Shown in pieces: positions 1-22,679 of a stretch of DNA of 64,000 bases (position 1 is its first letter; each line of letters starts with the position of its first letter). The stretch lies in the NCBI GenBank assembly GCA_951406725.2, contig OX597817.1, forward strand, positions 67,146,001 to 67,210,000, in the 5' to 3' direction. The position numbers and the translations under genes were made by a program. Below the pieces are notes generated by a model, which was given only the letters and a program-made list of their open reading frames with translations, was not told the origin of the DNA and searched no databases. The stretch is from Octopus vulgaris (taxonomy: Eukaryota).

Positions 1-1597
1 GTGCATCAGGCTATTACAGACTGGTAAATTAACTCTTGTCTGGAATAGCCCCGAGAGACATTTTTTCTATGCGATGTATTTATTTTTTTGCTCGCATTTC
101 ACCTTGTATGTATTTTTGTCGCACACACGTACACACACATAAATGCTATCTCTCACATACATACGTCACACATGCTTTTCTCGCTTGTTTTTCCATGCTA
201 AATTTGCCTTTTGTGGACACACCTCATTTCTATAGACCCTAAGGGGTCACGTATACATAGAGAGGGTTGTTTGTTCATTATAACGCGTCAGCATGTCATA
301 CTTTTGTTCCTGTGCGAACGAGGCATATAGTCGCTTAACCACTGGCATATTCATTGCTGTTTTTCGGTCTGGCAAGCCTTATTGCATTTCATGCGCCTTT
401 TGCTCCGCACGTGTACTTGCCTTGTTTTTTGCAACACGTTTGCAGTTGGCTTAATACTTTTCCCGACTCATAGGACGTCGGATGTTCACATGCGTTGCGC
501 CATGTTTAGGCGTAATTATTTTTCCCTGTTAGACCACTGTTGGTCACGTAATTAACAGAAAATTATCTGTGTCGCGCATTACACCAGCATGCTTGCACTT
601 TTGCCTTTTGTGTTACTAGCGATCTTCTGTCAATTCCATTTCCTCTCCTGCAGCAATTGATTTAACTGCTATTTTGCAGGATCAACCACCTTTAGAGAAG
701 TTGGATTTTAATTTCGCCTAGGTTCATTGACTGTGAGTTTTGCTTTCCCTCCGCTCCTTTCAGCGGAAGGGTTTATACTTTGTGACGTATACACTTTCAT
801 GCATGCACTCTTGATTTTTGCTCATTGAGTATTTTTTCTCTTTTTCCTTTAGTAAATTTCTTGTGTATGTTATAAATTTTGCCATTTTATTATATTGTGT
901 GCTATTTGGTTATCTGGTGTCCACCTTGAGTTTTGCAGTCACTACAATAAGTTTCCTTCGTGCGTACGCACTGGAGGGGAGCCTTGTAGTGATCCTATAA
1001 CGGTGTGCGCGCGCGCACCGTCCATTTTCTATTTCGCGCGTGCGAGTGTTGGTGCCTTCACCAAGGCACAGAAAGGAAGGGCCCTCTCGCGCATGCGCGA
1101 ACCACCGGAAGCGCGACCCTTTTGCCTACGTGGTAGTTAGCCAAGGCAAGGGGGTCGTAGAACGTTTGACCACTAGCAGCAGTCAGCGGGGACTTGAGAC
1201 AGCAGCGACTGAAGGCGACGGTCACGAAATATTTTCTCTCCGTCTGGACTTGATTCTAGCAGCACCTTACCAAAAGGCCTTTAACCAAATTGTTGCAGAC
1301 CAACATCGTCTCCATTGTTCGCCGCCATCTTTAACCCGTTCTGTTTTTAGCGGCTGAACATTGTAAATATTACAATCTATTAACTTTCTGCCTTGCGCGC
1401 CCAGAACCAAGGACATCAGATAACCACTTATTGTTACTGTTACCACATTAGAGAATAAAGTAGTATATATATCTTTTACGTCTGCGTCTTGTTGTTCCTG
1501 ACTGGTAGAATTCTGGATTATTAAAGCAACGGCTAGTGATTGCTTTCTTGTACCCCGAAAGTACAAGAGAAGATATACTCACACTAAGTTCGTTACA
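1..1597 (+). mobile_element. Non-autonomous LTR retroelement copy 1 (3' part; 5' end outside window): internal region 1-972, PPT 973-984, 3' LTR 985-1597
   Basis: Reverse complement aligns continuously with ~19948-21540. GGAGGGGAGCCT purine tract directly precedes the LTR, which runs TGTAGTGATCC...GTTCGTTACA (TG...CA) and has AATAAA at ~1454. Confidence 0.9.
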
Positions 1598-19486: not shown

Positions 19487-19947
19487 TTGAGCCTCCAACT
19501 GTTTGACAAATACTGTTTGTTTACATCCTCGTAACCTAGCAGTTCTACAAAAAAAGGCCGATAGTATAAATACCAAACTTTAAAAAGTTAAAAAAGTACT
19601 GGGATCGATTTGTTTGATTAAACCTTCCAATGCGGTGCCCTAGTATGACCTCAGTCCATTGATTGAAATAAGTAAAAATGGCAAATGATAATTCTTCTTT
19701 CTTGTGTCTCCAGAACGACAGATGAATGCCTTTTTTCTCTTAACCACTTCACGTAGCTGATTCAGAAAGAGAGGAAAGGTAGCAGCAATTTCCACGATAT
19801 ACTTGTCGACCTTGAAGTGATGGAATGCAAACTTGACCTCGGCGGAATTTAAATTCAGAACGTTTAGTACAAAAACTAATCCCACAAGCTAAATTTGTTC
19901 GACGTTGCAACGCTTCTGCCAATCTACCACATTTATAGTAATTCCTT

Positions 19948-22675
19948 TGTAACGAACTTCGAAAGTGAATATCTTGTCTTGTACTTTCGGGGTACAAGAA
20001 AGCAATCACTAGCCGTTGCTTTAATAATCCAGAATTCTACCAGTCAGAAACAACAAGACGCAGACGTAAAATATATATATACTACTTTATTCTCTTTCTT
20101 GGTAACAATAACAATAAGTGGTTATCTGATGTCCTTGGTTCGGGGCGCGCAAGGCTGAAAGTTAATCGATTGTAATATTTACAATATTCAGCCGCTAACA
20201 CCGGAACGGGTTCAAGATGGCGTCGAACAGGGAAGTTGAATGTGGTCGGCAACAATTTGGTTAAAGGCATTCGGCCGACTGCTGCTAGAATCAAGTCCTG
20301 ACGGAGAGAGAATATACGTGACCGTTGCCTTCGATAGCCATGTCTCAAAATTGCCGCTGCTGCTGCTAGCGGTCAAACGTTCTACGTCCCCCTTCCTCGC
20401 TAACTGCTACGTAGGCAATAGGGTTCTTCTTCCGGTGCTTCGCGCATGCGCGAGAGGGCCCTTCCTCTCTCTGCCTTGGTAAAGGCACCAACACGCGCGA
20501 AATACAAATGGACGGTGCGCGAGCGCGCGCCGTTATAGGATCACTACAAGGCTCCCCTCCAGTGCGTACGCACGAAAGGAAACTTATTGTAGTGACTGCA
20601 AAACTCAAGGTGGACACCAGATAACCAAATAGCACACAATAATATAATGGCAAAATTTATAACATACACAAGAAATTTACTAAAGGAAAAAGAGAAAAAA
20701 TACTCAATGAGCAAAAATCAAGAGTGCATGCATGAAAGTGTATACGTCACAAAGTATAGAGCCTTCCGCTGTAGGAAGCGGAGGGAAAGCAAAAACTCAC
20801 AGTCAATGAACCTAGGCGAAATTAAATCCAACTTCTCTAAAGGTGGTTAATCCTGCAAAATAGCAGTTAAATCAATTGCTGCAGGAGAGGAAATGGAATT
20901 GACAGAAGCTCGCTAGTAACACAAAAGGCAAAAGTGCAAAACATGCTGGTGTGATGCGCGACACAGATAATTTTCTGTTAATTACGTGACCAACAGTGGT
21001 CTAACAGGGAAAAATAATTACGCCTAAACATGGCGCAGCGCATGTGAACATCCGACGTCCACTGTATTTGTCGGGAAAAGAATTAAGCTAGCGCAAACGT
21101 GTTGCAAAAAACAAGGCAATACACGTGCGAAGCAAGGCGCATGAAATGCAATAGTGCTTGCCAGACCAAAAAAACAGCAAGAATATGCCAGTGGTTGAGC
21201 GATTATATGCCTCGTTCGTACAGGAACAAAGGTATGACATGCTGGCGCGTTATAATGGACAAACAACCCTCTCTATGTATACGTGACCGCTAGGGTCTAT
21301 AGAAATGAGGGGTGTCCACAAAAGGCAAATTCAGCATGGAAAAAAAAAACAAGCGAGAAAAGCATGTGTGACGTATGTATGTGAGAGATAGCATTTATGT
21401 GTGTGTACGTGTGTGCGACAAAAATACATACAAGGTGAATGCGAGCAAAAAAATAAATACAGCGCATAGAAAAAAAAATGTCTCTCAAGGCTATTTCAGA
21501 CAATGGAGTTAGTTTACCAGTCTATAATAGCCTGAAGCACAATAGCAGTTCGTTCTGTAACAGAAATGTTGAAATCACAAAATGCAGATGCCGGTTGAAC
21601 ACAATGTGTAGCGGTTGTAGCTTCGATGCTGTGACAGGTTAACTGGAACAGAAGAATCTCGTAGATAGACGGTGCTGTAAATCCTTGGTGTGCATATGCA
21701 CATGCAGCGTGCACGCTAAAGTTCCGCGAGTTGCTATGTACATCTTGTGGAGGTCGACGGTGTTGAAAGGCGACGGTGGTGGTGGAAGGCGACTGTAGTG
21801 GACTTGAGACAACATCGTTCTTAGTGATGATGGCGACGAAGATAGCGACGACGTGAAGTAGAAAGACGACGATGACGATGACGAAGGTGGAGAAAAGGCA
21901 TCGATGATGTGATGGCGTTCGTCATCATGGCTGTAGAATAAGAAAGAGGCTCCTTCTACAACTGTTTGTAGTGGCCGGAAACAAATCGTCGAAAGATGAT
22001 GCGTAGAGTTAAATCGTGTTCCGATTTCGCAGAAAAACTGGATTTTTTTGTTGTTAAGTGATCTCTGGTTTTAGACCAGAATCACGTCGGGGGGTCACCA
22101 GTGTAACGAACTTCGAGAGTGAATATCTTGTCTTGTACTTTCGGGGTACAAGAAAGCAATCACTAGCCGTTGCTTTAATAATCCAGAATTCTACCAGTCA
22201 GAAACAACAAGACGCAGACGTAAAATATATATATACTACTTTATTCTCTTTCTTGGTAACAATAACAATAAGTGGTTATCTGATGTCCTTGGTTCGGGGC
22301 GCGCAAGGCTGAAAGTTAATCGATTGTAATATTTACAATGTTCAGCCGCTAAAAACAGAACGGGTCAAAAATGGCGTCCGGGTGAAGAAGATGATTTGAC
22401 TGCAACAATTCAGGTTAAAAGTCTTCGGCCCAAAGACTGCTGCTATCAACCGGAGAGAGAGCGAATTAAACGTCTACTTCTATGAAATGCCTGCCGCTGT
22501 CTGCCGGACGCTAATGGTCAACCTTTACGCTCCCTTGCCTCTTTGTTAAGGCTCGGCTCGCGCTCCCTTGCTAAGGCCACGTCAGCAAGGCCACGTCAGC
22601 AAAATTCCCTCTTTCGGACTTCGTGTATTCGCGAGAGGGCGTTGCGCGCGCGCGCTGTTGTATAGGATCACTACA
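19948..22675 (-). mobile_element. Complete non-autonomous Gypsy-type LTR element, 2728 bp: 5' LTR 22675-22102, PBS ~22100-22080, non-coding interior, PPT 20560-20549, 3' LTR 20548-19948
   Basis: Both LTRs are TG...CA. 4-bp TSD CCTT at 19944-19947 and 22676-22679. PBS TGGTGACCCCCCGACGTGATT is complementary to the 3' end of metazoan tRNA-Trp. PPT GGAGGGGAGCCT. No gag/pol ORF. Confidence 0.93.
22080..22100 (-). promoter_or_regulatory. Primer-binding site for tRNA-Trp
   Basis: Plus strand AATCACGTCGGGGGGTCACCA versus tRNA-Trp 3' end AATCACGTCGGGGTCACCA (two extra G); lies 1 nt from the LTR end. Confidence 0.88.
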
Positions 22676-22679
22676 CCTT

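What the first reader, a model, noticed from the sequence alone, without database searches (positions are those of the whole stretch)
19948..22675. Intact LTR insertion whose two LTRs share R/U5 but carry different U3 regions
Seen: the CCTT TSD is perfect. 19948-20198 and 22102-22352 match at all but about 2 of 251 positions by eye. The remaining ~320-350 bp of each LTR (U3 in element orientation) is strongly diverged except for the terminal ~15 bp TATAGGATCACTACA. The 3' LTR U3 instead resembles the 3' LTR of copy 1 (985-1340). Known: ordinary reverse transcription makes both LTRs identical at insertion. Inference: this arose by intermolecular strand transfer between co-packaged heterologous RNAs (for example a helper's promoter acquired by a non-autonomous element), by post-insertion gene conversion, or the family keeps specialised 5' and 3' LTRs.
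Basis: partly seen in the sequence, partly recalled or inferred. Interest (0 to 1): 0.72.

Follow-up and report, generated by a model that had tools for sequence, protein, structure and literature searches.

The report
Retrotransposon copy with two-parent LTRs
This non-coding jumping element carries, at one end only, the promoter half of the terminal repeat of its protein-coding helper element, likely picked up while it was being copied; several other copies in the genome also have mismatched ends, so the usual assumption that both ends start out identical likely fails in this family.

Summary
A 2,728-bp non-coding LTR element (minus strand, CCTT duplication, tRNA-Trp primer site) has LTRs that match at 249 of 251 distal bases but are 61% alike over the rest. 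The odd 5' part (22340-22675) comes from a ~5.7-kb Gypsy-type partner family: 3 substitutions and 3 indels from its nearest copy. The switch lies in a 43-bp block identical in both families. Specialised 5' and 3' LTRs are refuted: copy 1 and 74 of 81 scored copies have matching U3s. It is not a one-off either: 7 of 81 copies have different U3s with intact duplications, two mini-elements join a whole partner LTR to a non-coding LTR, and LTR differences pile up in U5 (replicated in 40 further copies). Most likely the plus-strand strong-stop DNA moved between co-packaged molecules during reverse transcription (about 70%); post-insertion conversion is the main rival. LTR exchange between helper and passenger is known; frequent unequal LTR pairs I did not find in 10 searches. 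The scan earlier noted fold-back copies of what may be this family (e1-9828399).

The parts
19944..19947 (.). Target-site duplication CCTT, left copy
19948..20548 (-). 3' LTR, wholly of the non-coding family (type B), 601 bp, TG...CA
20086..20091 (-). AATAAA in the 3' LTR, followed by a T/GT-rich stretch; inferred poly(A) signal, kept in both families
   Evidence: function inferred
20549..20562 (-). Polypurine tract
20549..22101 (-). Non-coding interior, 1,553 bp; longest stop-to-stop frame 143 aa; 91-97% like 29 other copies
20744..20905 (-). 162-bp interior stretch 89-90% identical to a stretch inside the partner's pol
22081..22100 (-). Primer-binding site complementary to tRNA-Trp, with two extra C against the tRNA gene
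22102..22296 (-). 5' LTR, own-family part (inferred 3' part of R plus U5); one difference from the 3' LTR
22297..22339 (-). 43-bp block identical in both families; the switch lies here; begins with a 17-bp inverted repeat
   Evidence: block present in 14 of 22 partner LTRs and in the own 3' LTR
22340..22675 (-). 5' LTR, partner-derived part (type A; U3 and inferred start of R); 3 substitutions and 3 indels from the nearest partner LTR
22372..22372 (-). Inferred 5' end of the RNA (A of GCCAT); two aberrant copies restart at the equivalent base
   Evidence: inferred, no RNA ends seen
22676..22679 (.). Target-site duplication CCTT, right copy
1..1597 (+). Copy 1 of the same family (interior end and 3' LTR 985-1597); its 5' LTR lies upstream of the window and matches its 3' LTR
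   Evidence: L019, duplication AATG

Best explanation
This is a non-coding LTR retrotransposon copy whose 5' LTR starts with 336 bases of its Gypsy-type partner family, likely joined during reverse transcription when a plus-strand strong-stop DNA carrying the partner's U3 paired with the passenger's minus strand in the same particle. Shown: the two-family make-up, the switch inside a 43-bp identical block, the intact duplication, and recurrence of unequal LTR pairs. Inferred: partner and passenger RNAs are co-packaged (at least three RNA molecules, or two rounds of priming); the second strand transfer is sometimes intermolecular; the passenger's minus strand either read through its own U5 and R before pairing, or a passenger U5 first jumped onto a partner RNA. 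Both routes need the plus strand to change molecule. The integrase then inserted the hybrid normally. A 5' U3 is not transcribed (established), so daughters of this copy would have two passenger-type LTRs.
For: (1) The 5' U3 motif belongs to a 5.4-5.8-kb family with RT, RNase H and integrase; LTR pairs in both families mostly differ by under 1%, so they were active together. (2) One switch before integration explains a foreign tract that reaches the outer end while the 4-bp duplication stays; L030 is the mirror case at the 3' end. (3) Two separate insertions (L075, L139) join a whole partner 5' LTR through a 5-base match (TGGTG, the start of the primer site) to the passenger's last 72 bases and a passenger 3' LTR; a genome-wide pattern finds these 2 and no symmetric form. 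(4) L151 holds LTR + exact tRNA-copied primer site + a second R-U5 of another haplotype + variant primer site, while its first and 3' LTR are identical over that stretch. (5) Differences between LTR pairs are enriched in U5: 0.041 vs 0.007 per base in 28 copies (cut chosen after looking), 0.012 vs 0.005 in 9, 0.041 vs 0.018 in 40 with the cut fixed beforehand, although copies differ from each other less in U5 (0.080) than in distal U3 (0.129). (6) 7 of 81 copies have different U3s, all with matching duplications; in L181 the U3 difference stops at the same base as here. (7) Intermolecular second transfer has been proposed for HIV-1 (PMC5651808, parts 1-2 of 4 read).
Against: No intermediate was observed; all of this is read from inserted copies. 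L002 has an internal partner tract and L030 needs two events, which conversion explains as easily. A test of which LTR is the foreign one was mixed both for U5 (5 vs 10 of 15) and for U3 (7 copies). The link between a variant primer site and U5 mismatch (12 of 23 vs 1 of 14, post hoc, p=0.011) did not reach significance in the planned replication (9 of 19 vs 5 of 21, one-sided p=0.11). R is mostly concordant where U5 is not, which needs an early first transfer. U3, R and U5 limits are inferred. Cell-culture work finds second transfer generally intramolecular in HIV-1 (PMC5651808).
Confidence: 0.7

Rival explanations
1. After insertion, a break in the 5' LTR was repaired from a partner LTR elsewhere in the genome (ectopic gene conversion).
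For: Keeps the duplication; donors abound (46 partner-type LTR motifs); internal tracts as in L002 and L017 look like conversion patches.
Against: The tract replaces 336 bases at about 61% identity and ends at the terminus, where only 14 bases match; random donors would leave most differences in the more variable U3, yet differences are enriched in U5; it does not make L075, L139 or L151; the nearest partner LTRs listed on the same contig are about 78 Mb away.
Confidence: 0.15
2. A partner-passenger tandem was inserted in one piece, then recombination between its first two LTRs removed the partner interior and left a hybrid 5' LTR.
For: A single crossover in the 43-bp block suffices; three-LTR passenger tandems with one duplication exist (L136, L189); solo LTRs are common; such tandems are known (PMC1950507, abstract).
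Against: No partner-passenger tandem among 13 scored partner copies or the other partner LTRs fetched; needs two rare steps, the first still a template switch.
Confidence: 0.07
3. Two finished DNA copies, one of each family, recombined at their LTRs before integration.
For: One crossover explains this copy and L030 with intact duplications.
Against: Does not explain junctions at the primer-site start (L075, L139), the tRNA-copied primer site inside L151, or the U5 bias.
Confidence: 0.05
4. The mismatch is an assembly chimera.
For: No read or contig spanning the whole element was available.
Against: In run X3 one contig joins the right flank to 27 bases of partner-type LTR start (no differences, depth 19; that start is in 24 of 26 partner LTRs and in 1 of 82 passenger LTRs, this one) and another joins the left flank to 30 bases of passenger-type end (depth 17). 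Both fall just short of the tool's 31-base rule and X3 may be the source sample. The duplication is intact.
Confidence: 0.02
5. The family keeps specialised, different 5' and 3' LTRs.
For: None found.
Against: 74 of 81 copies have matching U3s; the partner-U3 plus passenger-R motif occurs twice in the genome (here and one solo LTR) against 46 partner and 165 passenger-type hits.
Confidence: 0.01

Closest known systems
[quoted passage not shown] 2010; title seen in the reference list of PMC6894440, paper not held, content recalled)
   Same: Helper and passenger share termini, primer site and tract, and exchange LTR segments.
   Different: As recalled, the swapped LTRs are inherited at both ends; here the exchange is at one end only and cannot be inherited. 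Animal host.
Recombination during reverse transcription in ONSEN and mini-Tnt1 (PMC5668417 abstract, section 7 and passages; PMC2923131 passages; PMC6894440 passages)
   Same: Co-packaged RNAs of different members give mosaic LTRs; a mini element took U3 sequence from its helper.
   Different: The Tnt1 chimera was identical at both ends; these passages describe two identical LTRs as the product.
Intermolecular second strand transfer proposed for HIV-1 (PMC5651808, parts 1-2 of 4)
   Same: Predicts a first-generation copy whose two LTRs come from different RNAs.
   Different: Inferred there from breakpoints one cycle later; here the unequal pairs themselves sit in a genome, in a retrotransposon.
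Ty1/Ty3 plus-strand transfer with the primer site not inherited from the tRNA (Lauermann and Boeke 1997; title seen only, content recalled)
   Same: Variant primer sites persist (26 of 41 passenger copies; 0 of 13 partner copies carry the 18-base tRNA match).
   Different: My test of its expected link to U5 mismatch did not replicate significantly.
Complex insertions by template switching in Triticeae (PMC1950507, abstract)
   Same: Two parents fused into one insertion with one duplication; three-LTR tandems occur here too.
   Different: This copy has two LTRs and one interior.

Membership tests
Non-autonomous LTR retrotransposon (this element) | Two direct LTRs with TG...CA ends and a short target duplication | tested here: met
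Non-autonomous LTR retrotransposon (this element) | tRNA primer site and polypurine tract next to the LTRs | tested here: met
   tRNA-Trp genes in the genome match; tract
Non-autonomous LTR retrotransposon (this element) | No gag-pol coding; cis signals shared with a coding partner | tested here: met
   longest frame 143 aa; shared termini, primer-site start, tract and three interior stretches
Non-autonomous LTR retrotransposon (this element) | Mobilised in trans by the partner's proteins | not testable with these tools
   inferred from shared signals and from hybrids
Ty3/Gypsy (partner family) | Pol order RT, RNase H, integrase | tested here: met
   Pfam on 2 of 2 frames scanned
Ty3/Gypsy (partner family) | gag upstream of pol; clade by RT tree | not tested
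   an upstream frame with a Cys/His motif is seen but was not scanned; no tree built
TRIM or LARD size classes (limits recalled) | Under about 1 kb (TRIM) or over about 4 kb (LARD) | tested here: not met
   2,728 bp
Inherited LTR-swap subfamily (soybean type, recalled) | The swapped LTR is present at both ends and in many copies | tested here: not met
   one end only; hybrid motif twice in the genome. Symmetric copies with a partner-like R motif do exist among other copies (L186, L194, L203, L220, motif call only)
Product of intermolecular second strand transfer | Two LTRs of different parentage within one intact insertion | tested here: met
Product of intermolecular second strand transfer | Mismatch present at the moment of insertion | not testable with these tools
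   needs free DNA copies or population alleles
Ty1/Ty3-type primer-site inheritance (recalled) | RNA-derived primer site travels with its own U5 | tested here: inconclusive
   p=0.011 post hoc; p=0.11 in the planned replication

The most novel reading that the evidence does not exclude
This Gypsy system routinely builds its two LTRs from different molecules: the plus strand changes partner in roughly 1 of 12 insertions and U5 comes from another RNA in about a third, because the minus strand reads through an unprimed RNA. Identical LTRs at insertion are then not the rule, the genome holds a readable record of each strand-transfer step, and passenger copies can be born under the helper's promoter.
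Probability: 0.5. Interest if true: 0.68.

Novelty: new variant of a known kind. Interest (0 to 1): 0.47.

Why it matters
LTR-LTR divergence is the standard clock for insertion age and assumes both LTRs start identical. Here 7 of 81 copies would look very old and about a third too old for a reason unrelated to time. [quoted passage not shown] The single insertion alone is a curiosity; the family pattern carries the interest.

Tried and rejected
Specialised LTRs: rejected. RNA ends: no RNA holder listed and no raw reads; contigs of three guessed-RNA runs gave no usable start or poly(A) end. No contig spans the element. A general tRNA search was badly aimed; the first three pattern hits were tRNA fragments, two further ones were tRNA-Trp genes. 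Linkage tests of the foreign LTR were inconclusive. The primer-site association did not replicate significantly. A first classification script crashed and its partial output was used only to look. A rival start site near the TATATA run (about 22196) was considered; it fits the left edge of U5 tracts but not the L151 and L126 junctions, and remains open. The partner family shows no U5 excess (0.0065 vs 0.0047), but its U5s are nearly invariant, so this has little power. Rows left out of the 81: tandems (L026/L027/L136, L189), copies with truncated or duplicated LTRs (L029, L115, L120, L125, L126, L130, L131, L132, L135, L151, L160, L162) and 16 of 57 new loci whose ends the script could not place. 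The first 32 copies were picked by likeness to this element, which enriches partner tracts; in the 40 picked by primer-site pattern 3 had different U3s and none a partner U3. Ten paper searches listed no report of frequent unequal LTR pairs with a U5 bias; Du 2010 and Lauermann and Boeke 1997 were not held.

Full report
Observation. The element spans 19948-22675 on the minus strand (2,728 bp) between two CCTT copies. Its 5' LTR is 22102-22675, its 3' LTR 19948-20548, with a primer site at 22081-22100 and a polypurine tract at 20549-20562. The distal 251 bases differ at 2 positions; the rest is 61% identical against 50% for shuffles. The primer site matches tRNA-Trp genes of this genome with two extra C. 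The interior has no frame over 143 codons.

Two families. The whole element found 40 scored candidates of 1,060 in the genome; nearly all begin matching only after the first 100-260 bases. The odd U3 alone found a second family in pairs 4-5 kb apart. These 5.4-5.8-kb elements (one 4.5 kb) have a long frame with RT, RNase H and integrase in Gypsy order. I call them partner (A) and the 2.7-kb family passenger (B). They share LTR ends, the primer-site start, the tract and three interior stretches at 77-90%. Exact motif counts, lower bounds: 46 partner LTRs, 165 passenger-type LTRs, and 2 LTRs with partner U3 and passenger R, namely this one and a mosaic solo LTR.

Anatomy of the hybrid. The first 336 bases of the 5' LTR differ from the nearest partner LTR by 3 substitutions and 3 indels; the last 238 differ from the nearest passenger LTR by 1. 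The last partner-type base is 22340, the first passenger-type base 22296; the 43 bases between are identical in both families. Copy 1 has matching LTRs.

Is it an artefact? Only assembled contigs of public runs were on hand. In run X3 one contig carries the right flank plus 27 bases of partner-type LTR start and another the left flank plus 30 bases of passenger-type end, both at single-copy depth. Each is just under the tool's 31-base rule, and X3 may be the source sample, so this is support, not proof.

Recurrence. I scored 81 full-length passenger copies (32, 9 and 40; exclusions under Tried and rejected). Seven have 48-93 differences upstream of U5, all with matching 4-bp duplications: three with partner sequence (this one, L002, L030) and four with another passenger lineage (L022, L181, L192, L224). 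Among the 40 chosen without regard to this element the count is 3. In the others, differences cluster in the last 120 bases: individually significant (uncorrected p<0.05) in 12 of 28, 1 of 9 and 14 of 40; pooled 0.041 vs 0.007, 0.012 vs 0.005 and 0.041 vs 0.018 per base (0.036 vs 0.008 in the 36 with at most 15 upstream differences). The cut was chosen after looking at the first set and fixed for the later two. Copies differ from one another more in distal U3 (0.129) than in U5 (0.080), so neither ageing nor random donors predict this bias. Many mismatched U5 tracts are haplotypes seen in other copies.

Frozen intermediates. L075 and L139 are separate insertions in which a complete partner LTR continues through TGGTG into the last 72 bases of a passenger interior and a passenger LTR; the junction pattern occurs twice in the genome. 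Since a 5' U3 is not transcribed, each must have formed anew, which is what a partner plus-strand strong-stop DNA pairing with a passenger minus strand would give (inference). L151 has a full LTR with an exact tRNA copy joined to a second R-U5 with about 20 U5 differences and a variant primer site, while its first and last LTR agree over that stretch; this suggests the minus strand can read through an unprimed RNA to its 5' end (inference). L151 and L126 restart at the same base, my basis for placing the RNA start near 22372; no RNA data confirm it.

Mechanism. Most likely a plus strand with partner U3 completed the 5' LTR of a passenger minus strand inside one particle, pairing in the shared block, and the hybrid was integrated normally (0.7). 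Against: intermediates were not seen, two linkage tests were mixed, the primer-site link seen post hoc (12 of 23 vs 1 of 14) was not significant on replication (9 of 19 vs 5 of 21), and L002 and L030 are equally open to conversion. Rivals: ectopic conversion 0.15, tandem then deletion 0.07, recombination of finished DNA copies 0.05, assembly error 0.02, specialised LTRs 0.01.

Comparison with what is known. Mosaic LTRs from co-packaged RNAs are documented for ONSEN (PMC5668417: abstract, section 7, passages) and for a mini-Tnt1 and its helper, where both LTRs were identical (PMC2923131: passages), and reviewed in PMC6894440 (passages). LTR transfer between helper and passenger by conversion or template switching is proposed for wheat (PMC9744471: passages). 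Intermolecular second transfer is proposed for HIV-1 against a generally intramolecular rule (PMC5651808: parts 1-2 of 4). Microhomology-driven second-strand priming is described in bioRxiv 10.1101/2022.09.25.509424 (abstract, passages). PMC1950507 (abstract), PMC10886601 and PMC11302176 (passages) added little. The soybean LTR-swapping and Ty1/Ty3 papers were not held and are recalled. Ten searches listed no report of frequent unequal pairs with a U5 bias; the library lacks most subscription journals, so this is weak.

Verdict. A real helper-passenger hybrid, the most visible case of a family-wide tendency to unequal LTRs. Ingredients are known; the frequency, the one-ended form and the preserved intermediates in an animal Gypsy system make it a new variant. 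Interest 0.47.

Noticed in passing
L075 and L139: Two 1.25-kb mini-elements: whole partner 5' LTR, the same 72-base remnant of the passenger's 3' interior, passenger 3' LTR; different target sites (one exact 4-bp duplication, one with a mismatch).
   Followed up: yes
L151 (minus strand, from 1009) and L126 3214-3931: Aberrant copies that both restart at the A of GCCAT in the LTR; L151 has two primer sites and two different U5s, L126 a 118-base duplication in the 3' LTR only.
   Followed up: partly
L077 (minus strand, from 1071): Solo partner LTR followed by an 18-base exact tRNA-Trp copy and a repeat of its last bases, although partner elements carry only about 10-11 matching bases.
   Followed up: partly
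L029, L120, L125, L130, L167: Copies with intact or near-intact duplications whose 5' LTR keeps only its first 22-310 bases and then jumps to the LTR end or the interior.
   Followed up: no
L162 995-2301; L226: Head-to-head LTRs joined just after the primer site (L162); L226 has two primer sites in opposite orientation. Resembles earlier finding e1-9828399.
   Followed up: no
L136 and L189: Tandems of three LTRs and two interiors under one 4-bp duplication.
   Followed up: partly
window 19968-19988 and 22122-22142 (U5 of both LTRs): A 7-bp stem with paired changes between haplotypes (CTTGTAC/GTACAAG, CTTGCAC/GTGCAAG), suggesting a kept RNA hairpin; not folded or counted.
   Followed up: no
window 20744-20905: 162 bases of the non-coding interior are 89-90% like a stretch inside the partner's pol; possible packaging or pairing signal.
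   Followed up: no
window 20589-20597: An inverted copy of the LTR's first bases lies about 45 bases before the polypurine tract in both families.
   Followed up: no
L064, L065, L071, L138, L165: Partner copies whose two U3s differ in the number of short internal repeats.
   Followed up: no
window 19637-19888, minus strand: An 84-codon open stretch next to the insertion that may hold a host exon; not established.
   Followed up: no
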